16,059 nt of DNA from Azolla caroliniana. Lineage: Eukaryota; Plantae; Polypodiophyta. The stretch covers positions 1 through 16,059 of the forward strand of contig JBHGNT010000763.1 in assembly GCA_043228905.1 (NCBI GenBank), given 5' to 3'. A program made the position numbers and the translations under genes. A model generated the notes under the pieces. It searched no databases and was not told the origin of the DNA. It worked only from the letters and a program-made list of their open reading frames with translations. This document shows positions 2,493 to 16,057 of this stretch, piece after piece; the stretch's first letter is position 1, and every line of letters starts with the position of its first letter.

Positions 2493-2924
2493 TAATGAAA
2501 GGAGGAATGAGAAAGACGACCGAAAAGATGAGTCGAAAACTAATTTCGACTTCGGCCCGACTCATGAAGTTGGAATGCATGGGACTCGGAAGCCGAGACC
2601 AGACGTAGGGGGAGCCACCAAAATGGAGAGCCCAATTCGGAGCCAACCGAAAGAGGGGGAGGCAAAGCCGGAAAGGCCGAGACACGGACTGAGAGCTCTA
2701 GAAATCGGAGTCGAGTTGGAGACAACTAGCTCTGTTAAGGAAGAAGACGAATCGGAGATAGCCGATTCGGTCGGTAGTAGAAATGAATTGAATGTACCCG
2801 ATTCAATCATAATGTTAGATTCGGAGGAGCCGAATCTACGATGGGCCAAGCGGACAAAAAAGGCAGCCAAAGCCGACGCTTTACAGAGGAGCCAACAGGG
2901 CCAGGGGCGCTAGCACCGCGACAG

Positions 2925-3398
2925 TGTTAAGAGTCTATTACTAATCAATAGACCAAATCAAGTAAAAAGGAAGAAAATAGATTGGATAGAAGAACCCGTT
3001 CCACCCGACCACCCCCGAGCTATGATCTAGACATAGCCAACCTACCACCGACGTCCCATACCGCCGGATATTAGGATGACTAATACCTTGGAAGAGATAA
3101 ACACGATCGTCGAGACGAAAGCCTAGCCCGCACCACCGGTGTCTACGACAGCAGCCTTCCGACGTGATGATCCCTATGAGGGTAGCTAAGCTTCATATTT
3201 ATACCTTTTCTTAGGCCCCTTGAATAGATGTGCCTTTCTAAAAGGCTCTCTATTCATTGGTTGTCTAAATCATGATAGTGCATGCACATATCATTCATTC
3301 TATCCAATCATTAGTCCCCTTTTTAATAATAGTGAACATACCCTTCACTAATGTAAATATTAGTGACCTACCCTCACCAACGTTATGTGTACATAACA
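2925..3398 (-). repeat. 3' LTR of element A (474 bp)
   Basis: TGTTA...TAACA termini; matches 10124-10596 apart from 4 substitutions and one 1-bp indel by eye. Confidence 0.97.
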
Positions 3399-3414
3399 TA
3401 CTCCCCTACTTCAA
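3399..3414 (-). promoter_or_regulatory. Polypurine tract of element A
   Basis: The minus strand reads GAAGTAGGGGAGTA immediately before the 3' LTR; the pol TAG stop (3406-3408) lies inside it. Confidence 0.85.
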
Positions 3415-6400
3415 AAGATTGCACTCTTGCAATATAAAGTGAGGAAATTGTGCCTTAAGCGAATGCTCGCGTTCCCATGTGGCATCATCAATAGGTTTAT
3501 CCATCCATTTGATCTTGAATAGCCGAATCTCTTTAGAACGTAAACGTTTAGTACGAGAATCAAGAATTCGTTCAGGAACATGAGGTTTGTAAGAAAAATC
3601 CTCTAATGTTACAAGATCTTGGATTGTGATGGTGTTATCACCAGAGCCTAAAATTGGTTTTAGACGACTGACGTGAAAAACAGGATGAATACCAACGTTA
3701 CGAGGTAAGGCAAGGTGATAAGCAGATGACCCAACTCGCTTAAGGATTTCAAATGGGCCACAATATCGTGGGGCTAACTTAGCGCACTTGCCCGTAGATG
3801 ATGACGTAGAATCAGTCGGGACACGCAAAAAAACTTTTTGACCAATAGTAAATGCACGAGGACGTCTATCCTGATCAGCATAAAATCGAGCACGATCTTG
3901 AGCTGTCTTGACATTTTCTTTGGCAATATGCAACATTTGGTTCATGTCTTGCAAAAAATTGCGTGTACTGTCTAATGTATCACGATGAATCGTGACATCA
4001 ACTGGGGCACGTGGCTGAAAACCATACATCAACATAAAAGGACTATATCCAGTGGATGTATGTTTAGAGCTATTATAGGCAAATTCTAAGATAGGAAGGT
4101 ATTGCTCCCACTTAGAAGGGGTTTTTGCTACATAAGCTCGAAGCATGTCCTCAATAATTTGATTAACTCGTTCAGTTTGTCCATCAGACTGAGGATGATC
4201 TGCGGAACTCATGCTCAACGTAGTTTCTAGTTTCTTAAAGACCTGAGTCCAAAAGTCACTAGTAAACTTGGAATCTCGATCACTAACAATATCCATCGGT
4301 AATCCATAAAAATGAAATAACTCATCAACAAATTGATAAGCCAATTGTTGAGCGGTTACCGTGGTTTTTGTAGGAATAAATCTAGCTAATTTTGTTAGCC
4401 TGTCAACGACAACCCATATGGCATCATGACCCCTCTGTGTACGAGGTAAACTAACAATAAAATCCATCGAGATACTTTCCCATTTATTGTTGGGAATATC
4501 TAAGGGATGTAAAAGACCAGCAGCTTTAAGTCGTTCCGACTTATTAATCTGACATTGTAAGCATTGAGTTACGTATTTATGCACGTCAGAGCGCATCTTA
4601 GGCCAGAAAAAAGTACACGAGATGAGAACGAGTGTGCGTTGTATTCCAGGATGACCAGCAGATGGTGCATCATGACATTCATGAAAAATTTTCTGTTTAA
4701 CATTTGGTAAATCTGGAACACAAACCTTTCCACTACGGTAGAGCAAACCGTTTGTAATGTGAAAGGTCGCCTTCGAGGGTAGGGTGCTAGTATCGGCATC
4801 TAAACCAGATTCGGCTTTCGTCCAGTATTTTGAGAAATAACTGTCATCAAGGTATTTCCCTCGAAGGTGATCTAAAAGATCAGATTTTATTTCCGTGAAG
4901 CTAAGCATGTTAACTTCTTTAATGCGACTAAGAGCATTAGCAACGGTGTTCATAGAACCCTTGCGATATCGTATGGAAAAATCAAAATCTTGCATAAGGT
5001 CAGCCCAACGGCCTTTACGACCAACAAGATCGGGCTGGTCACAAAAATACTTTAATGATTGATGGTCTGTTGTAACCACAAATTTATTTCCATAGAGATA
5101 GTGCCTCCATGTTTTAAGTGCGTGTATCACCGCAAACAACTCTTTCTCTTGAACCAAATACCGAGATTGAGCAGCATCAAGCTTCTTACTTTCAAAAGCA
5201 ATAGGGTGACCACCTTGATAAAGAACGGCACCAATAGCATAATCACTAGCATCGGTTTCAATTGAGAAAGGCTTAGAAGGGTCTGGTAATAGAAGAGTGG
5301 GAGCCTGACACACATGCTCCTTGAGTGTCTCAAATGATTTGTCAAGTTGTTCATTCCATGAAATTGGTTTGACAGACTTACGTGGATGACCTTTTAAAAG
5401 GTCAGTTAATGGCGTAGTCAATTTGGAATAGTTACGAATTGATTTTCGTAAAAATCCAACAAACCCTAAGAATGATCTAAGTTCACGAATATTACGAGGA
5501 ATGGGCCAAAGTTTAACCTTTTCAATACGAGAAGGTTCAATTTCAACGCCATTTTCTGTAATTAAATGACCTAGGTACACAATAGATTTTTGGAAGAAGT
5601 CACATTTTGAATGTTTTGCATAGAAAGAGTTGTCACGCAACTTTCGCAAAACAAATCGAACATGTTGAACATGATCTTGCAAGGTATGGCTATATATCAA
5701 AATATCATCCAAGAAGACGACAACAAAATCACCGAGTTGATCTCGGAAAACATCATTCATCGCTTGTTGGAATGTGGCTGGAGCATTAGTCAACCCAAAC
5801 GGCATGACTAAAAACTCATAATGGCCATAGCGCGTACGAAAAGCGGTTTTAGGAATATCATCCTCGGCGATGCGAATCTGATGATAACCAGTTCGTAAGT
5901 CAATTTTCATAAAATATCGAGCCCCGTGCAAACGATCAATCAAATCATCGGCACGAGGTAATGGATATGCATTCTTAATTGTCATTTTATTCAAACGGCG
6001 ATAATTGATACACATTCGCCACGAACCTTCCTTCTTCTTGACTAATAGAACTGGCGCACCCCAAGGTGATTTACTATACCTAATGTGGCCCATACTCAAG
6101 TATTCCTTAAGTTGTTTAGCGATCTCATCCTCTTCTAATCGACTAAGTCGGTAAGGTGGAATGCTCACAGGAGCAGCCCCAGGGATGAGTTCAATTTGAT
6201 GGTCCACATTACGTTTAGGTGGTAAAGTAAGCGGTAATTCAGTAGGAAACACATCTTGAAAATCCTCTAAAATAGAGTCGAGTAATCGTTGCTCAAAATG
6301 TGGTAATTGTGTGGCGTCAATATTAAAATAATAAAATTGAACCGCAGGATCAATTACACACGAATAAATTAATGAACTAGAATACTCACTTAAAGATTTA

Positions 6401-6551
6401 GAAGACACAAGTGAATGAGAAGGAAGTTTGGAACATTGAATAAAATGTTTACAATTATTAAGTTCAAATGTGATTGAGTGATTAACCCAATCAATGGACA
6501 AAGAAGGGTTTTTATTAAAAAACCAAGGATATCCTAAAATGACATCTGCGG
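3406..6551 (-). CDS. pol: Element A pol: protease C-terminal end, RT, RNase H, integrase and C-terminal chromodomain (open frame; annotated ORF 3406-6501)
   Basis: Motifs DVILGYPW, SPWGAPVLLVKKK, VMPFGLTNAPATFQ, FLDD, ETDASDYAIGAVL, TDHQSL, integrase HHCC (H..GH..C..C), SMDF, VSDRD, DGQTER, GPF, HPVFHVS and chromodomain PERILDSR...IKW...ATWE. Confidence 0.95.
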
Positions 6552-6640
6552 TGTCGTGCCTTTCGGCTCCGGATCGTTTGCGTGAGTCGGGTGGGAACCG
6601 CTGGGGTTTTGGACTAGGAAGAGGAGAGTTTTAAGGCTAA

Positions 6641-6800
6641 TAAGAATATAAATATGTTGTAAGAAAGAGTTATAGCAAACTCGTGAATCCCACGAGTGTA
6701 TTGTATTAGATTAATCAATATGAATATAAGAATATAAACTTCGGTTGAAAGAGAATGATATAGAATTCTCGTGAATCCCACGAGTATAGTTTATTAATTG
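6641..6800. repeat. Two diverged ~87-bp tandem units in solo LTR B, each with the hairpin CTCGTG-AATCC-CACGAG
   Basis: TAAGAATATAAA at 6641 and 6727; CTCGTGAATCCCACGAGT at 6680 and 6768. Confidence 0.75.
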
Positions 6801-7110
6801 GTGTTTTTTAGAAACATATCCAGTTTCCAAATATTTTTCACACACAATTACATTGTGCTCCCCATCCTTATGTAGTGATGAGGAAGTCTTAGTAATCTAT
6901 GCTTTTTCTCTAACTATAGACCCCATGCTTTTCCTATAGATAGACTATATGCTTTATCTAAAGTGATCATGCTTTTTTCTAACTTGTGCGTTTTTTATCA
7001 TGCACGCTAGATGTGTATGTGTAGCTTTTTCTTTTGTTATGCGTTTTTCTAATGTTTATCCTAGCGTGAATTTACCTTTCTATGTGGGACATCTATGCTT
7101 TAACACTAAT

Positions 7111-7183
7111 GAAATGCTAGTGTAATGGTAAGACATTACATTATTAACATGGAGGTGCAAGGTTCGAATCTTGCCCTATGCAT
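7111..7183 (+). ncRNA. tRNA-like Pol III (A-box/B-box) module in solo LTR B; not a canonical tRNA
   Basis: A box TAGTGTAATGG (7118-7128), B box GGTTCGAATCT (7161-7171), GCAAG/CTTGC stem, T-runs at 7194-7197 and 7220-7225. Confidence 0.6.
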
Positions 7184-7280
7184 GTTCCATTTATTTTGCT
7201 ATTTTCTTCTATTTCTTCATTTTTTATTGAATCTAATACTATATACGTTTTTCACGTAGTGTACAAAATACACTACGACA

Positions 7281-7452
7281 GCGGATTGTAATTTCATAAC
7301 ATGAAAGTCAAGCTTCTCCAAATAAGTATCTATTTGAATTGGCAGTTGACAAACAATGCCACTGATGTATTGAACGTTTCCATTTGCCATGTGAACTTGA
7401 TAGATATGATCACTTGCGTTTATGTGGAGCTCCATTTGCTGTGTGACTCGTA
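7281..7452 (-). pseudogene. Element A protease, central fragment; catalytic D-S/T-G half missing
   Basis: RVTQQMELHINASDHIYQVHMANG...DFHVMKLQSA resembles a gypsy protease after the active site; I found no DSG/DTG motif between gag and this fragment. Confidence 0.75.
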
Positions 7453-8357
7453 GATTTGTCTTGAGGAGGGGTGTTCATTGACTTCCTCTCAAGACGACGA
7501 CAGGTATCCTTTGTGTGGCCCCGCTTCTTGCAATCTGCACAGAAGAGGTTCGGTTTCTTTGAGTCGCGGTCAAGAGTGTCACTGGATTGCTTACGTTTCC
7601 CAATGAACTTGACATTCGGAGTTTTGGCGAACTCAGGTTTATTGTGGTCTTTCTTGGAAGTCCTATGGTATCGCAGCACAATGTTGATGGCTTCCTCGAA
7701 AGTTGTGGGGTCCTTGTCATGGACAATCCAATGATAATCCCCATTGGGAATACCATTCAAAAAACAAGCGACAAACCATTTCTCACCCGTAAGTCCCGAT
7801 TTTTGGATCTGGGTCCGAGCGTGATGCACATAATCCTCGAGAGAGGTAAATGGCTTACTAGACAATGTGAGCAAGTGTTGCGCTTTTTCGGTTTGAGAAG
7901 GTGGATGCAAGAATTGTTTCTTAAAAACATCAACGAAACCTTCCCAAGTTGTGGGTAAGTTTTTTGCGGTCCTTAGGCCACGCCACCAAGCAGCAGCTCG
8001 GCCACCTAACTCACGACCGACATAACCAATTTTTACTGCATCGGGCTTGGGATGAAGCTCAAAGTGAGACTCCCAACGACCAAGCCAAGTGCTAATGGCC
8101 TCCTCAGTTCTTTCTTTCTTATCTCCCTTGAAAGGCGTGACTACGAAGGAAGGTTCACCTTCTTTCTTGGACTCAATAGTTAATTCTTGGAATTTCTTTT
8201 CCAATGCCATATTGGCCTGTCTCATTTCGGCCAATTGATTCAAGGTAGTAGTGAGCAATTGCTCAATAGTGATCTCAGCTTGTGTGCGAGATGCGGATTG
8301 GGGTTGAGAGGTCTCATTTGGAGAGATCGTTCCAACTGCGTTCAAAACTTGTTCCAT
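7410..8357 (-). CDS. gag: Element A Gag (capsid plus CCHC zinc knuckle), 315 aa
   Basis: Coiled-coil N-terminus, PFKGD..WL..WESHF, LGGRAAAWW, TWEGFVDVFKKQF, zinc knuckle CADCKKRGHTKDTC. Confidence 0.92.
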   Translation of the reverse strand: MEQVLNAVGTISPNETSQPQSASRTQAEITIEQLLTTTLNQLAEMRQANMALEKKFQELTIESKKEGEPSFVVTPFKGDKKERTEEAISTWLGRWESHFELHPKPDAVKIGYVGRELGGRAAAWWRGLRTAKNLPTTWEGFVDVFKKQFLHPPSQTEKAQHLLTLSSKPFTSLEDYVHHARTQIQKSGLTGEKWFVACFLNGIPNGDYHWIVHDKDPTTFEEAINIVLRYHRTSKKDHNKPEFAKTPNVKFIGKRKQSSDTLDRDSKKPNLFCADCKKRGHTKDTCRRLERKSMNTPPQDKSTSHTANGAPHKRK

Positions 8358-9349
8358 GATGCACGTTGTGGGTATGCAATAAAATAAGGAGGTTCAGAAA
8401 ATACACAAGCAAAATGAATGCTTGAAATTTTGATTGAAAGAACTTTATCCAAGAAAGTATCTCATGTCTTTACCCCTCTAGACATATGAGATGTGATTCG
8501 AGATCCGATAACTATGGTAACACTATGGTGTTTTAAAAACCATGGGGGAAAACATAGCTAAGATGTATTTCTCAGATCTCTATCTTGAGTAATCATGGCG
8601 GCTCCCCGAGGCTCAACCATGGTTCTTACATCAATGAAATTTCCTAGATAGCCTTATATTAATGCCAACCCATCATGTATTATATGGTCGAGAAAGTGTA
8701 TTACGTGAAAAAACAAGTGCACTCACAAGTAATATTCTAGTCTTGCGAGCAATAAGCAAACGTGATGATAAAATGATAAAATAAGGCACTACTCATAAGA
8801 GTTAAGTAGTGACGAAAACAAGGGTAAAAAAAAAAAAAAAAAAGAACCCATGTGTTACCTACGAAAAAAAAACAATGTCACAAATAAATGGGAAGTGCAA
8901 GGTATGCACATATACATCCCAATATGATTGTTATAACTTGCACAATTGTGACATAAGCCACAATTTGATACAAGTGATGACGGTGTTGTGCGCAAAGATG
9001 TAATACTCAAATCCATGAGTAAAACATCAATAAGGGAACTCATATGGTTTTACTCGTTTTCTAAGGCTTGATGATAAGAGTTAAACCTAGATGACCCGTT
9101 GAAAAAAAAATCGTTCAACAAGCCACTCCATACGAAAAAAATAGTCTACACGTAAAGGTTACATCAAAAGTAAACAATGTAAATACTTTATACACGAAAA
9201 GGAAGTGGAAAAAGGAGAGTTAATTGTGGGCGGGTAAATAATAATTACTAGAAAATCATATAAGTGAAACAATACTTATGAAATTAAAATTTAATTAGAA
9301 TAATCAACAATTAGGTGTATGGAATCAAACATGCCCTAAGATACGAAAC

Positions 9350-9686
9350 CCTAGGGTAGTTGACATGCACCTCCTCAAGACCACCACCTATCCCTAGAAT
9401 CGGCCAAGTAATGGCTAATTAAAGAGGAAAGTGGCATAGGTAAGTGACATATACCTCGTCAAGGCCACATCATCCCTTAGAATCGGCCAATTGATGGCTA
9501 ATTAAAAAGGAAAGTGGCATATGTAAGCTACATATACCTCGTCAAGGCCACATCATCCCATAGAATCGGCCAATTGATGGCTTAATAGAGAGTAGAGTGG
9601 CATAGGTAGGCAACATACACCTCGTCAAGGCCACATCATCCCTTAGAATCGGCCAAGTGATGGCTCAATAGAGGGGAAGAGTGGTA
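9350..9686. repeat. ~4 tandem copies of an 83-84-bp unit in the 5' leader of element A
   Basis: GTGG(CA/TA)T at 9431, 9514, 9597 and 9681; core CCTCGTCAAGGCCACATCATCCC..AGAATCGGCCAA.TGATGGCT. Confidence 0.9.
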
Positions 9687-9697
9687 TACTCAACATC

Positions 9698-9885
9698 ATA
9701 TGCAAAACGGCCATGAGATAAGCGTGTGCGATTAGAGCAAACACGCTCGACCCAATGCACAAGAATAATTATTATCGTAAGAGTTCAAGAGAGGAGAGAG
9801 TGGGATATATATCGCAATATGCAAAAGGCCATGAGTTGAGCGTGTGCGATTAGTGCAAACACGCTCGGCCCGATGCATAATAATA
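9698..9885. repeat. Duplicated ~70-bp unit with a stem-loop in the element A leader
   Basis: ATATGCAAAA.GGCCATGAG...AGCGTGTGCGATTAG.GCAAACACGCTCG at 9698 and 9817; stems AGCGTGT/ACACGCT. Confidence 0.85.
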
Positions 9886-10110
9886 AGTAAAATCGTAGCG
9901 TAGTAGGAGGTAGAAAGAAAGAGAATAAAACGTAATACCAATTTGATTCGACCATAAAGAACGCATAATAGAAAAAGAGAAGAGATCAAAAAAGAAGAAT
10001 ACCGGGTTTAGAGTGTTGTTTTGATCCTGAGAAGAGCATGACGAGCCTTGTTAGATCCCCCTCGCTCACACGCAAAAAACATCAAAACAACAAAAAAATT
10101 GTTAGTAAAA

Positions 10111-10122
10111 GCTCTGATACCA
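10111..10122 (-). promoter_or_regulatory. Primer-binding site for initiator tRNA-Met (element A)
   Basis: Minus strand TGGTATCAGAGC, 1 nt inside the 5' LTR end; this is the classic plant tRNAi-Met PBS. Confidence 0.95.
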
Positions 10123-10123
10123 C

Positions 10124-10596
10124 TGTTAAGAGTCTATTACTAATCAATAGACCAAATCAAGTAAAAAGGAAGAAAATAGATTGGATAGAAGAACCCGTTC
10201 CACCCGACCACTCCCGAGCTATGATCTAGACATAGCCAACCTACCACCGACGTCCATACCGCCGGATATTAGGATGACTAATACCTTGGAAGAGATAAAC
10301 ACGATCGTCGAGACGAAAGCCTAGCCCGCACCACCGGTGTCTACGACAGCAGCCTTCCGACGTGATGATCCCTATGAGGGTAGCTAAGCCTCATATTTAT
10401 ACCTTTTCCTAGGCCCCTTGAATAGATGTGCCTTTCTAAAAGGCTCTCTATTCATTGGTTGTCTAAATCATGATAGTGCATGCATATATCATTCATTCTA
10501 TCCAATCATTAGTCCCCTTTTTAATAATAGTGAACATACCCTTCACTAATGTAAATATTAGTGACCTACCCTCACCAACGTTATGTGTACATAACA
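10124..10596 (-). repeat. 5' LTR of element A (473 bp)
   Basis: Copy of 2925-3398; adjacent to the PBS; followed by TSD GACAG (10597-10601). Confidence 0.97.
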
Positions 10597-11188: not shown

Positions 11189-11544
11189 TGTCATGAACAT
11201 CAACTTGAATTTTAGCCTTACGTTCTTGTATAAATATATTTCTCCTAGACAAACTTTAGATTTTAAACCTTTGTATAAAGAGTTGTATATAAGACCGACC
11301 GAGTATGTAAGATTGAGTATGTAAGACTGAGTACGTAAGACTTGGCATGCAAGAATTAATATGCTTGATATTATAGTATGTAAGACTTGGCATGAGCATG
11401 CTTATCATGCTTCACTACATGTATAAAAAGGGTTGATCTCCCTTGTTAACATATAGGAAATCAACACAAGTCATGGAATAGATATTCTTACTCATGGTCA
11501 TCAACTTCCCCATCTCTTTATCTTCCAATTGTTCATCCGTGACA
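11189..11544 (+). repeat. 5' LTR of element C (356 bp)
   Basis: TGTCATGA...CCGTGACA termini; TATAAAA at 11422-11428; gag ATG 45 nt downstream. The partner LTR is outside the window. Confidence 0.8.
11301..11342. repeat. Three tandem 14-bp repeats GAGTAYGTAAGAYT in U3 of LTR C, plus a fourth copy near 11375
   Basis: GAGTATGTAAGATT, GAGTATGTAAGACT, GAGTACGTAAGACT. Confidence 0.85.
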
Positions 11545-11546
11545 AA

Positions 11547-11556
11547 TTGATTTCCT
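11547..11556 (+). promoter_or_regulatory. Self-priming PBS of element C
   Basis: TTGATTTCCT, 2 nt after the LTR, is the exact reverse complement of AGGAAATCAA (11455-11464), 33 nt after the TATA start; there is no TGG tRNA-type PBS. Confidence 0.8.
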
Positions 11557-11588
11557 TCCTTCTTTTTCTTCTTTCTCAATACACTATC

Positions 11589-12554
11589 ATGTTAGAATCA
11601 TCTAGTAACCTTGAGCAAATTTTGGTGGTCTTGCAACAACTCCAACATGAGAATGCCAACTTGCGAAACACCGTCCAAGAACTTCAGGCAACCACAATGG
11701 TCATACCTCACCCAATTATTGACCCTTCTACGACAAAACCCAAGGTTAGCTTGCCAGATAAATTCGATGGAACAAGGTCATGGTTAAAAGGCTTCATCAA
11801 CTAGATCCATCTTATTACTCGTCGTCAGCCCCGACGCTATTCTGATGACTTTCGATGAGTCAGGCTCATCGGCACATTGCTGACAAGACAAGCCCAAGCT
11901 TGGTTTGCCCCTCTGTTGGAGACCTCTTTGCCCCTCTTGACCGACTTCCAAACATTTCTTTATCGAATTCGAAGCAACTTTCGAGGAGACTGACAAATGA
12001 CGAGCTGCACTCAACAAATTATATGCATTACAACAAGGAGAACGTGCGGCATCAATCTATGCATACGAATGGGATGGACAAGCCCTCCTCAATCAATTTT
12101 GTCGAGGATTACGAGGTGAGATAAAAAATCTTTTGCTTAACTTTCTTGAGCCCACATCTTTGAATGAGGCTATTTCCCAAGTTGTGCACTACGATAACCG
12201 TCTCTTTGAGTTCCGGCAAGAGGAACATCCTCACCGGATCCATCCACCTTGGCCAGCCGCTACACAAAGTCACCTATTGTGGTCGACGGCCCCGATTCCC
12301 ATGTCACCCTCCACTTCATCTTCAACTCCTACAATACATTCTAGCTCCCCAATGGAGATCGATCGAGTTCGCTACCGACCATTGACGAACGCGCAACGAC
12401 AACAACGACGGGCCAACAATTTATGTCTCTACTATGGCGGCCTGACCATTTGATCCGCTCTTGCCCAAAAAAGGGACCCCATCAAACACCACATCGTGTG
12501 GATGGGGTTGACATTTTCTGTCAACAGGAAAACTCCAATGTCTAGTTGCAGTAG
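11589..12554 (+). pseudogene. gag: Element C gag pseudogene
   Basis: PKVSLPDKFDGTRS, AQAWFAPLLE, PTSLNEAISQ, PMEID, RRANNLCLYYGG-DHLIRSC (decayed CCHC); several stops and frameshifts. Confidence 0.9.
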
Positions 12555-14778
12555 GGGTTGTGCATCTGGACCACAAGAGTCGACAATTGTGTCAAGGGCC
12601 CAATCAACCAACTGCCTCAACAACAAGCTTCACACTTCCGATCACTCTTCAGTTTCGCTCTGAAGATAAAAGCTTTGTTGGATTCTGGGGCTATGTCGTG
12701 CTTTATTGATATCATGTTTGCACGGACACACAACATTCCAAGCAATAAAATAACTGTCCCGATTCCAGTTGAAGTGATTGACGGTCGAACGCTCTCTTCT
12801 GGTGCAATCACAGATACAACAATTCCCTTGAGTCTCCACATAGGAGGCCACCAAGAAGAAATCATTTTTAACCTCATCACATCACCTCGACATCCTATCA
12901 TCTTGGGGTTATCATGGCTCGAGACTCACAATCCAATCGTGGATTGGCAATCTCGCACCATTAACTTCACCTTGAATTCTTGCCCACAAGCGATTGCTTC
13001 CACTCTTCTTTGAGCCAATGCTCTGCCATTTGTTTGGACGCTTGTTCCGGCGAGGACCACATCAACGGTTGCTCCAATGCCCATTTCTACTCCGGTGAGG
13101 ACTGTGTCAACGGTTGCTCCCACTCATGTTTTGGAGGCAACTCCCGTTTCTGCTCCGGTGAGGACCACGTTAGCGGTCGCTCTGATTCCCATTTATGCTC
13201 TAGTAAGGACCGCGTCAACAGTTGCTCCCACTCATGTTTTGGAGGCAACTCCCATTTATGCTCTAGTGAGGACCGCGTCAACGGTTGCTCCCACTCATGT
13301 TTTGGAGGCAACTCCCATTTCTGCTCCGGTGAGGACCAAGTTAGCGGTCTCTCCCATTTCCTCTTCCGCGAGTACCGTGTCAACGGTTACTCCAATAGAA
13401 ACAACATCGATAGTTACTCCCGCTTCGGCCTCAAAAACAGTTTCCACCCTTGCTCGGGTAAGTGATATAGTGTTGATTGCATCCATTTCTAATTCTAAGG
13501 ACATGGCGGTCATGTCCACTCCAGACATTGCCCTATGTACTAGCTCTTTTCCATCAAAATACAATGACTTCTTTGATGTATTTGAGAAGAAAAAAGTTGA
13601 GCGTCTGCTTGAACATTGCCCATACGATTGTCCAATTGACTTGAAAGATGGTGCTTGTCCTCCTTTTTGCCCTGTCTATGGGTTATCTGAATCTGAACTC
13701 AAGGCCCTCAAAATATATATTGAAGAGAATCTCACAAAGGGATTTATTCGCCACTCAAAATCTCTAGTTGGCTATCCTACCCTATTTGTCAAAAAGAAAC
13801 ATGGAACGTTACGCTTATGTATCAACTATCGCGGGCACAATCGAGTCACTGTTCGAAACCGCTATCCACTACCTCTAATCCCCGAACTCCTCGACCGACT
13901 TCGGGCTAGGTGTATATTCTCCAAAATCGATCTCAGAGGCGCCTACAACTTGGTGCGTATCAAGCATGGAGATGAGTGGAAAACGACATTTCAAACCAGG
14001 TACAAGCATTTTGAATACACAGTAATGCCATTTGGTCTCACAAACATTCATCCAATTTTTCAACATATGATGAATGATATCTTCCGAGAATATCTGGACC
14101 AATTTGTGATCATCTATCTCGACGACATACTTATCTTCTCACAGGACTACATAGAGCACACCAAGCACATCCAACTTATCCTGTCCAAACTTCGGAAACA
14201 TGGACTTTATGCAAAACCTGAGAAGTGTGAGTTTGATCGAACCTCAATTGAATTCCTCAGGTATGTTATTTCATCTGATGGTCTCACTATGGACAAGAAG
14301 AAAGTCGCAACGGTTCAAGAGTGGGAAGTCCCCACCAGGATCAAGGATATGCAATCATTTTTGTGTTTTGCCAACTTCTATCGTCAATTCATTCAAGGAT
14401 TCTCTACATTGGCGCAACCCCTTATAGCACTCACTCAGAAAGATTCTCCTTTTTGCTGGACTCCTACAACCCAACTGGCATTCGAGACACCTAGATCTAC
14501 ACCTAGATCTGACCAAACCATTTATGATCGAAATTGATGCCTCTGACTTCGCCATTGGTGCCATTCTCTCTCAATCAGATAACAATGGGATCCTTCATCC
14601 TGTTGCCTTTTATTCTCAGAAGTTCACACCCCCTGAGATCAACTACCCAGTTTATGACAAAGAACTCTCTGCCATTATTGCCGCCTTTGAAGAAGGGTGT
14701 CCTTACTTGGAGGGCGCCCAACACCGTGTCCAGGTGGTGGCCGATCACAAGAACCTTGTCTACTTCACCACTACTCGC
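12533..14778 (+). pseudogene. pol: Element C pol pseudogene: protease, repeat linker, RT, partial RNase H
   Basis: ALLDSGAMSCFI, PIILGLSWLETHNPIVDW, YPLPLIPELLDRL, KIDLRGAYNLVRI, VMPFGLTN, YLDD, EIDASDFAIGAILSQ, NYPVYDKEL, DHKNLVYF. Confidence 0.93.
13050..13365 (+). repeat. In-frame minisatellite of 45- and 63-bp units between protease and RT of element C
   Basis: Units start at 13050, 13095, 13158, 13203, 13266 and 13329 and encode VRTxSTVAPTHVLEATPxxAx or VRTTLAVxxxPIxAx. Confidence 0.9.
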
Positions 14779-14883
14779 TGTCAGGAACAGTACTGAGACA
14801 GAGAAGGAATCAGTACTAAACGAAGGATTAGTACTATGAGAGGTGTAGAACTTCTTCGAGAGAAGGAAGGAGTGAGCAAGACG

Positions 14884-14896
14884 GAGAGAAAGAGAG

Positions 14897-14937
<41 letters not shown>

Positions 14938-14945
14938 GTGAGTGA
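14884..14945. repeat. Compound (AC)/(AG)15/(GTGA) microsatellite in R/U5 of LTR D
   Basis: Direct reading; (AG)n at 14905-14934. Confidence 0.95.
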
Positions 14946-15163
14946 TGATAAGAAAGATATGTATTATATGAAGAGAATATACAATGGTGGCTAAAAGGCT
15001 TAAGACTGGCGTTGAACCAATTTGGTTCAACATAATGCCTAGTGCCCTCTTTTATAGTGTTTTCAGGAGTAATCCTGAAGCTTCTAGAATGTTCCAGAGA
15101 AATCTGGAATATACACTAATTTCCTATAATAAAATGTAAATGAAAATAATATCCTACGTATTA

Positions 15164-15236
15164 CAATAGATGGTCTAATGGTAAAGAGCTCGACCCATAT
15201 AACCTAAGGTCATGGGTTCGAGTCTTGCCATATCAT
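15164..15236 (+). ncRNA. tRNA-like Pol III (A-box/B-box) module at the U3 tip of LTR D; not a canonical tRNA
   Basis: A box TGGTCTAATGG (15171-15181), AGGTC variable-loop-like segment, B box GGTTCGAGTCT (15215-15225); 44-nt spacing as in tRNA U8 to G52. Confidence 0.6.
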
Positions 15237-16057
15237 GACACTATCCTCCCTTTGAAACGACGAGTGTCACGAGTCGTCTTGGATTGAGGACCCGGTTTGT
15301 GTGGATATTGACGATGGAAGTCTTCAAGAAGAGCACGAGCATTGGTCATATTCTCGATCGGTTCCCAAGTACGTTTGTTGGGACTATAGCCTAGCCAATC
15401 GACTAGATAGTAGAGCTTGTTGCGAACAATCTTGGAATCAAGGATGGCGGCAACCTCGTACTCCGGCCCATCTTCAAGGTCGATCGGGGGTGGAGGTTGG
15501 ATAAGACATCCTGGGATGGTGCTCTCGTGGTAGGGTTCAAGGAGAGAACTATGAAACACCGGATGTATCCGAAGTTGAGGAGGTAGATCGAGACGAAAAG
15601 CGACATCATTAATCTGTCCAATAATACGGAAAGGACCTAATCGCCGATAATCCAACTTCTCACATGGGCGAGTAGTCTTGATGTGTCGTCGTAGCAGCCA
15701 CACCCGATCTCCAATATTAAAACTGGATGGAAGTCGATGACGATCCGCGTAGACCTTGTGTGTTTGTTGAGCTTGCTAAAGATGAGTATATAAATCCGCT
15801 TGTATCTTTCGTAACCGCTCCAAACGATCCTCCGCGCACGGATTTGTGGACACCTCTGGGGTTTCAAGTACACTCCACCGGGGGTGACATCCCGTACAAG
15901 CATAAAATGGCGTAACTTTAGTGGATGCGTGGATAGAGTTGTTATAGGCAAATTCGGCGAAGTGGAGAATATCTGCCCAGTCGTCCTGATGATAACTGAG
16001 AAAGCACCGCAGATACTGCTCCAGCGTTTGATTTGTTCGTTCAGCTTGGCCGTCGGT
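15233..16057 (-). pseudogene. pol: Element D integrase C-terminal half, GPY/F module and classical chromodomain; one in-frame stop
   Basis: TDGQAERTNQTLEQYLR, FAEFAYNN, TAG at 15776-15778, KLDYRRLGPF, IHPVFHSSLL, YEVAAILDSK...YLVDWLGY...TWEP. The stop codon lies inside the LTR. Confidence 0.93.
15241..15255 (-). promoter_or_regulatory. Polypurine tract of element D
   Basis: The minus strand reads CAAAGGGAGGATAG followed by TGTCATG. Confidence 0.8.

What the first reader, a model, noticed from the sequence alone, without database searches (positions are those of the whole stretch)
15164..15240. tRNA-like Pol III module built into the U3 tip of a gypsy LTR, in antisense orientation (element D)
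Seen: A box TGGTCTAATGG and B box GGTTCGAGTCT 44 nt apart (canonical tRNA geometry), with CCCATATAACCTAAGGTC between them, loosely like a tRNA-Met anticodon/variable region. The module ends at the LTR terminus and points away from the LTR's Pol II promoter. I see no run of 4 or more T on + from 15241 to the window end, so a Pol III transcript could run more than 800 nt antisense over the PPT, chromodomain and integrase; from a 5' LTR it would read into host flank. Known: Cassandra TRIMs carry 5S-derived Pol III promoters in their LTRs, and TFIIIC-bound B boxes act as chromatin barriers in yeasts. Inference: a captured tRNA promoter used as an insulator against heterochromatin or as a source of antisense regulatory RNA.
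Basis: partly seen in the sequence, partly recalled or inferred. Interest (0 to 1): 0.8.

Follow-up and report, generated by a model that had tools for sequence, protein, structure and literature searches.

The report
Backward tRNA promoter in moss LTRs
The end repeats of a group of protein-coding jumping genes, likely from mosses, keep a back-to-front tRNA-gene promoter while the DNA around it changes, so the element likely docks a host tRNA-transcription factor there to shield its own promoter, though neither binding nor RNA has been shown.

Summary
Confirmed and extended. A box (15171) and B box (15215) lie antisense at the outer U3 tip of a Tcn1-like chromovirus LTR (14779-15240, minus strand). 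The same module, on the same strand with 43-45 nt spacing, occurs in 14 of 80 related loci with 57-77% integrase-tail identity; seven have open pol frames over 1,000 aa. The boxes stay conserved while spacer and flanks are near random. A profile made from phage tRNA genes ranks these modules first. Cloverleaf pairing is not conserved, so selection likely acts on DNA. A second copy sits in an unrelated, Phygy-like solo LTR (7118-7171). Not supported: tRNA-Met identity, a conserved 800-nt antisense RNA, use as a primer. The module is absent from other Tcn1-like clades and from the visible 400 nt of RLG1, so it is dispensable. Best reading: a captured type-2 Pol III promoter kept as a TFIIIC site that protects the LTR's Pol II promoter (inferred, about 45%). 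It differs from Cassandra and Helenus in being antisense and in autonomous elements. This scan noted LTR-borne tRNA-like units before in other, likely fungal and animal, genomes.

The parts
15171..15181 (+). A box of a type-2 Pol III promoter, antisense to the element
   Evidence: 9 of 12 aligned modules match a generic A box with at most 1 mismatch at 43-45 nt, against a shuffled mean of 0.12
15207..15214 (+). conserved pre-B stretch, in register with tRNA variable region and T-stem 5' strand (AGGTC...)
15215..15225 (+). B box, predicted TFIIIC anchor
   Evidence: pre-B plus B 74% mean pairwise identity across 11 families against 31-38% in flanks
15123..15162 (+). AT-rich zone upstream of the A box, predicted TFIIIB site, lying between the module and the Pol II promoter
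   Evidence: 80% AT here; mean 82% in 11 families against 60-61% on either side
15077..15094 (-). array of four alternating GAA/TTC units that looks like a heat-shock element (motif recalled)
   Evidence: sequence; conserved island; such arrays in 7 of 13 LTRs examined
15050..15056 (-). TATA-like box of the LTR's Pol II promoter
15006..15032 (-). conserved motif at the predicted transcript start; predicted self-primer region
14779..15240 (-). 3' LTR of element D, 462 nt, TG...CA
   Evidence: 90% to L001 over 334 nt; LTR boundary in sequencing runs
15241..15253 (-). polypurine tract
15233..15775 (-). integrase C-terminus with SH3-like domain and chromodomain; stop codon lies inside the LTR
6552..7280 (.). 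unrelated solo LTR with 4-bp NCGN target duplication (Phygy-like), inserted in element B's protease; orientation unresolved
7118..7171 (+). second A/B-box module, inside the solo LTR
   Evidence: E 0.0007 to 0.0016 with profiles not trained on it; best hit of the phage tRNA profile

Best explanation
A tRNA-derived pair of Pol III promoter boxes is conserved, back to front, at the outer U3 edge of a clade of protein-coding Tcn1-like retrotransposons, where it likely binds TFIIIC and would shield and open the element's own Pol II promoter. Shown: position, strand, fixed spacing, conservation of boxes but not of stems or spacer, tRNA-like ancestry, AT-rich zone upstream, presence in families with open pol frames. 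Inferred: a tRNA gene or SINE head was captured into an LTR and copied to both ends by reverse transcription; TFIIIC binds the B box and places TFIIIB on the AT zone; on the 5' LTR this complex sits between flanking chromatin and the heat-shock-like array and TATA box, where it would block spreading heterochromatin and read-through from neighbouring elements. Any Pol III RNA would be a by-product.
For: Antisense A+B with at most 4 mismatches in the first 140 nt of the LTR in 11 of 51 related loci with a located LTR start, plus the window; 0 of 52 on the sense strand; 3 of 520 shuffles. Profile hits at E below 0.001 at this site in 14 of 80 loci (10 were training rows); leave-one-out recovers 10 of 12 at E up to 0.006. 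Identity across 11 families: pre-B plus B 0.74, A 0.57, spacer 0.33, downstream 0.31, upstream 0.38. A motif-blind 10-mer scan also picks out the B-box region. A-B spacing stays 43-45 nt while B-to-tip varies 26-59 and B-to-R 200-292. A profile of 22 phage tRNA genes gives modules as its nine best hits in 428 kb. Cloverleaf pairing 52.7% against 50.1% shuffled. Seven positive loci have open pol frames of 1,044-1,235 aa. Known: the B box is the high-affinity TFIIIC site, and tRNA genes and ETC sites are TFIIIC-dependent barriers (PMC12409998); barrier activity is orientation-independent in fission yeast (PMC2040200); TFIIIB and TFIIIC block Pol II (PMC5052057); the chromovirus RLG1 sits in heterochromatic islands (PMC7466625).
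Against: No binding, chromatin or transcript data. The module is absent or decayed in L011 (open pol, 1,075 aa), L015 and L023, in 0 of 36 loci from other record series with a located LTR start, in the window's element B and C LTRs, and, by eye, in the first 400 nt of the RLG1 transcript, so heterochromatic chromoviruses succeed without it. The A box is only moderately conserved: weak in the motif-blind scan, 6 of 12 bases in L008, and L020 and L024 are found only at E about 2 when left out. Within close relatives other U3 zones are conserved about as well. The same complex on the 3' LTR could block the genomic RNA before R. Zone identities were anchored on the motifs, and the families are not independent. 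All barrier evidence comes from yeasts and mammals.
Confidence: 0.45

Rival explanations
1. The module is an active Pol III gene whose antisense RNA is the point: it tunes the element's own expression or small-RNA silencing.
For: The A box is kept at fixed spacing with an AT-rich upstream zone, as a transcribed promoter would be. A T4 lies between B box and LTR tip in 5 of 11 families, which would give a discrete short RNA. The window copy folds stably, z about -4.
Against: RNA length is not conserved: first T4 from +7 to more than +845. The T4 excess is not significant (5 against 2.7 expected, P 0.08). No consensus RNA structure.
Confidence: 0.2
2. A tRNA or SINE relic of which only the B-box region was co-opted for a job unrelated to Pol III, such as a Pol II factor site or an RNA or DNA element near the U3 end.
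For: The pre-B stretch is as conserved as the B box although it is not part of the minimal motif; the B core is near-palindromic; the A box is weaker.
Against: The A box is retained in register far above chance. Distance to the LTR tip varies. The conserved columns are those of tRNA promoters.
Confidence: 0.17
3. A neutral passenger: an old tRNA or SINE insertion carried along in the LTR.
For: Missing in sister families and other clades; several copies have decayed boxes.
Against: Spacer and flanks have fallen to 31-38% identity while the boxes have not; a like module recurs in an unrelated LTR, where read cover peaks at the B box in 3 of 3 runs with broad cover.
Confidence: 0.1
4. A self-made landing pad or primer: the module attracts Pol III-targeting elements, or its RNA primes reverse transcription.
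For: Earlier scan notes describe LTR-borne Pol III boxes as insertion sites in other genomes (unchecked).
Against: No insertion was seen in front of either window module or in the aligned modules. The sequence after the LTR pairs for 9-12 nt with the R-start region in 4 of 5 loci and for at most 5 nt with the module, which is ordinary Tcn1 self-priming.
Confidence: 0.05

Closest known systems
Helenus TRIMs (TRIMp3; Kojima 2024, PMC10886601; main text parts 1-4 of 6 read, plus searched passages and supplement hits)
   Same: tRNA-like sequence in the LTR, conserved around boxes A and B, not a functional tRNA, not the primer.
   Different: Helenus is non-autonomous, 311-1263 bp, and is proposed to use Pol III to make its genomic RNA; in Helenus-1_SMo the boxes are sense. 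Here the boxes are antisense, at the U3 tip, in elements with long open pol frames and a separate TATA promoter. The paper notes that not a few Repbase LTRs hold tRNA-like sequence but analyses only TRIMs.
Cassandra and Ajax TRIMs (as described in PMC10886601)
   Same: Pol III promoter captured in an LTR and conserved at the promoter motifs.
   Different: 5S-derived type-1 promoter; Cassandra transcription starts in it and makes the element's RNA; non-autonomous.
Tcn1 chromoviruses of mosses and club-mosses (PMC2864245 and PMC6317226, passages and supplement rows); P. patens RLG1 (PMC7466625, passages and supplement file 2 part 2)
   Same: Chromodomain integrase, self-priming without a tRNA PBS, LTR of about 400-460 nt.
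   Different: No Pol III module is mentioned in the passages seen. The visible 400 nt of RLG1 differ from this LTR and show no module by eye.
tDNA and ETC chromatin barriers (PMC2040200 abstract; PMC12409998 and PMC5052057 passages; PMC4228148 abstract)
   Same: A/B boxes acting through TFIIIC and TFIIIB on neighbouring chromatin and Pol II transcription is the proposed mode of action.
   Different: Those are fixed host loci in yeasts and mammals, shown by experiment; here a mobile element would carry its own, and nothing is shown.

Membership tests
tRNA gene | Cloverleaf with conserved stems and anticodon loop | tested here: not met
   (0 genes in 60 of 80 loci scanned)
Type-2 Pol III promoter | A and B boxes at tRNA-like spacing, above chance | tested here: met
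Type-2 Pol III promoter | AT-rich upstream zone | tested here: met
   described for land-plant tRNA genes in PMC13578239
Type-2 Pol III promoter | Conserved oligo-T terminator | tested here: inconclusive
   5 of 11 against 2.7 expected; absent in the window copy
Type-2 Pol III promoter | TFIIIC or Pol III occupancy and transcription | not testable with these tools
   only contig data were offered
Helenus / TRIMp3 | tRNA-like sequence inside the LTR | tested here: met
Helenus / TRIMp3 | Short, non-autonomous, non-coding internal region | tested here: not met
   integrase-chromodomain ORF abuts the LTR; open pol frames in 7 positive loci
Helenus / TRIMp3 | Promoter oriented to transcribe the element | tested here: not met
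   antisense in all positive loci
Tcn1 chromovirus | C-terminal chromodomain with aromatic cage | tested here: met
   Pfam Chromo E 5e-14; cage residues Y, W, Y read from the translation (cage positions recalled)
Tcn1 chromovirus | Self-priming site instead of a tRNA PBS | tested here: met
   9-12 nt complement to the R start in 4 of 5 relatives; element D's own 5' end is outside the window
Tcn1 chromovirus | 5-bp target site duplication | not testable with these tools
   only one end of element D is in the window and no genome is held
Tcn1 chromovirus | Placement with reference Tcn1 elements in an RT-RH-INT tree | not tested
   trees held no named references; one named homolog is a Batrachochytrium protein at 52%
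Phygy (solo LTR 6552-7280) | 4-bp NCGN target site duplication | tested here: met
   CCGC on the minus strand at both ends; defined in the supplement of PMC6317226
Phygy (solo LTR 6552-7280) | Phygy polyprotein and tRNA-Trp PBS | not testable with these tools
   solo LTR; no internal part recovered

The most novel reading that the evidence does not exclude
Autonomous gypsy retrotransposons of one moss group, in at least two unrelated lineages (Tcn1-like and Phygy-like), have each taken up a backward tRNA promoter as a built-in TFIIIC insulator, so that a heterochromatin-seeking element carries its own anti-silencing barrier and seeds thousands of TFIIIC sites across the genome.
Probability: 0.3. 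Interest if true: 0.85.

Novelty: new variant of a known kind. Interest (0 to 1): 0.62.

Why it matters
How chromodomain retrotransposons stay expressed after landing in silent chromatin is open. A portable TFIIIC site at the LTR edge is a concrete, testable answer, and related families with and without it give natural controls. It would also extend LTR-borne Pol III promoters from small parasites that use them for their own RNA to full elements that use them for something else, and would predict very many non-tRNA TFIIIC sites in a plant genome.

Tried and rejected
ARAGORN and Rfam found no tRNA in the window or relatives. No whole genome is held and the loci could not be searched as genomes. 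Viral contigs gave no relatives by protein or module pattern. A solo-LTR end pattern gave 55 phage matches, none extending by BLAST, and none in prokaryotic genomes, so the solo LTR's orientation stays open; the flank seen fits the NCGN target motif and does not tell direction. BLAST of modules against phages gave only E 2-8 matches, used just to fetch tRNA genes. A B-like match at L003:1020 lies in pol coding sequence and is chance (E 0.19). The window's long hairpin is not significantly conserved (51 of 500 shuffles as high). One guessed-RNA contig overlapped the solo module but ran past both sides: no evidence of a Pol III RNA. The first tree was a quick tree because the careful search did not finish, and L043 was left out as frameshifted; the second kept 64 rows with a best segment of at least 330 aa and lacks element D, L008, L010, L016, L043 and L050. 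Element D does not match the visible part of RLG1.

Full report
Observation. A strict pair occurs twice in the window and in 0 of 500 simulated windows. They lie in a 462-nt LTR on the minus strand (14779-15240) that follows a polypurine tract and an ORF with SH3-like and chromo domains, so the module is antisense at the outer U3 tip. It is not a tRNA gene by ARAGORN or Rfam and folds as a long hairpin. Contigs of four public DNA runs under four organism codes cover it as they cover the rest of the LTR, so it is a family trait, not a one-off insertion.

Host and element. No genome is held. A chromodomain, self-priming and a nested solo LTR with a 4-bp NCGN duplication point to the Tcn1 and Phygy lineages, which PMC6317226 reports from mosses and club-mosses and from Physcomitrella (passages and supplement rows). 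A moss host is therefore inferred, not shown.

Conservation across families. An alignment of the integrase tail fetched the best 80 of 541 confirmed metagenome loci; selection was by protein only. In the first 140 nt of the LTR, a generic A+B pattern with at most 4 mismatches was found antisense in 11 of 51 loci with a located LTR start and in the window, on the sense strand in 0 of 52, and in 3 of 520 shuffles. For 29 loci the LTR start was not found or was cut short. A profile from 10 relatives hit this site at E below 0.001 in 14 of 80 loci and twice in the window. Left out in turn, 10 of 12 modules were recovered at E up to 0.006; L020 and L024 only at E about 2. Across 11 families, mean pairwise identity was 0.74 for pre-B plus B, 0.57 for A, 0.33 for the spacer, 0.31 downstream and 0.38 upstream (zones were anchored on the motifs). 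Two less circular tests agree. A motif-blind 10-mer scan picks out the tip and B-box region, a GAA/TTC array, the R-start motif and a few shorter patches, but the A box only weakly. Given the B anchor, 9 of 12 rows match the A box with at most 1 mismatch, against a mean of 0.12 and a maximum of 4 in 5,000 shuffles (rows are related, so this is no strict probability). A-B spacing is 43-45 nt while B-to-tip ranges 26-59 and B-to-R 200-292. Seven positive loci carry open pol frames of 1,044-1,235 aa.

Ancestry. A profile of 22 annotated phage tRNA genes returns modules as its nine best hits in 428 kb, the two window copies first (E 0.006 and 0.008). The module profile hits 6 of 29 tRNA genes at E up to 0.1, on the same strand. 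The parent tRNA cannot be assigned; the Met-like stretch is limited to the closest subfamily.

DNA, not RNA shape. RNAalifold finds no consensus pair. The cloverleaf pairs in 52.7% of cells against 50.1% shuffled (56 of 500 as high), and the hairpin is not significant either. What is kept is box sequence, spacing and an AT-rich zone upstream (82% against 60-61%), the layout of a type-2 promoter (PMC12409998 and PMC13578239, passages).

The antisense RNA. The window copy has no T4 for 845 nt from the B box, but 7 of 14 modules have one within 29 nt and the closest sister at +541. The T4 excess before the tip is not significant. A long antisense RNA is thus not conserved. Priming is excluded as far as tested: the sequence after the LTR pairs with the R start in 4 of 5 loci, not with the module.

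Distribution, including results against. On the pol tree the module falls in two separate sub-clades of a well-supported 29-row clade and needs at least three changes. All 14 positives come from one record series (ERZ1034...), where L011, L015, L023 and the short L025 lack it or hold only a decayed B-like trace; 0 of 36 other loci with a located LTR start have it. The window's element B and C LTRs lack it, and so, by eye, do the first 400 nt of the RLG1 transcript (cell cut). It is therefore dispensable for the lineage. Among close relatives other U3 zones are conserved about as well, and L008 has a broken A box.

A second lineage. The 729-nt solo LTR at 6552-7280 shares no BLAST similarity with element D's LTR, yet holds a matching module (E 0.0007-0.0016 with profiles not trained on it). 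Contig cover peaks locally at its B box and at its ends in 3 of 3 runs with broad cover; this is weak evidence, since other tRNA-like sequence can add cover. Its orientation is unresolved.

Mechanism. I commit to a TFIIIC site that protects the LTR's Pol II promoter (0.45). The order along U3 is tip, B box, A box, AT zone, heat-shock-like array, TATA, R start. TFIIIB would sit on the AT zone next to the Pol II activator sites. In yeasts such complexes stop heterochromatin regardless of orientation (PMC2040200, abstract), alter neighbouring Pol II transcription (PMC4228148, abstract) and block Pol II read-through (PMC5052057, passages). Moss chromoviruses are thought to sit in heterochromatic islands (PMC7466625, passages). 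Each of these steps is inferred for this element. A cost is evident: the 3' copy lies in the path of the genomic RNA.

Relation to what is known. Helenus, Ajax and Cassandra carry Pol III promoters in LTRs but are non-autonomous and use, or are proposed to use, them for their own RNA (PMC10886601, parts 1-4 of 6). That paper mentions other tRNA-like LTRs in Repbase without analysing them. Nine literature searches listed no paper on an antisense A/B module in autonomous moss LTRs; most hits were seen only as listings, and passages were also read in PMC2864245 and the sugar beet preprint 10.64898/2026.03.01.708851. The library lacks most subscription journals and Repbase. Earlier scan notes report LTR-borne tRNA-like units in other genomes, one of them backward and judged a passenger; none matched this DNA.

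Verdict. Real, conserved, tRNA-derived; a new variant of LTR-borne Pol III promoters; function inferred. Interest 0.62.

Noticed in passing
window 6552-7280: Solo LTR with 4-bp NCGN duplication splits element B's protease; high-copy in public runs; carries its own A/B module and two copies of a 53-nt repeat with a palindromic core.
   Followed up: partly
window 15077-15094; L002, L020, L050 LTRs: Arrays of alternating GAA/TTC units in U3 that look like heat-shock elements, expanded in L002 and L020; suggests heat-inducible families.
   Followed up: partly
window 15006-15032; L003, L009, L011, L024: The R-start motif and the sequence after the LTR change together across families, a clear case of predicted self-priming; in the window the R-start region is itself a palindrome.
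   Followed up: partly
window 15233-15240: The pol stop codon lies inside the first 8 nt of the 3' LTR, so the PPT is coding; the same holds in several relatives.
   Followed up: no
window 2922-10553: Element B: chromodomain gypsy with 99% identical 434-nt LTRs, a tRNA-Met-type PBS (recalled motif) and a long leader with 83-nt and 118-nt repeats; far from the Tcn1-like rows in the pol tree.
   Followed up: no
window 11190-14778: Element C is related to L011 (LTR 80%); it has a Ser/Thr/Pro-rich tandem repeat between protease and RT (13035-13393), is interrupted by element D in RNase H, and lacks the module.
   Followed up: partly
L013 and L017, downstream of pol: These relatives seem to carry extra coding-like sequence after the chromodomain instead of an immediate LTR.
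   Followed up: no
L137 3391-3423 (phage OK040794.2): The module profile hits an unannotated tRNA-like 3' half between tRNA-Thr and tRNA-Phe (E 0.04).
   Followed up: no
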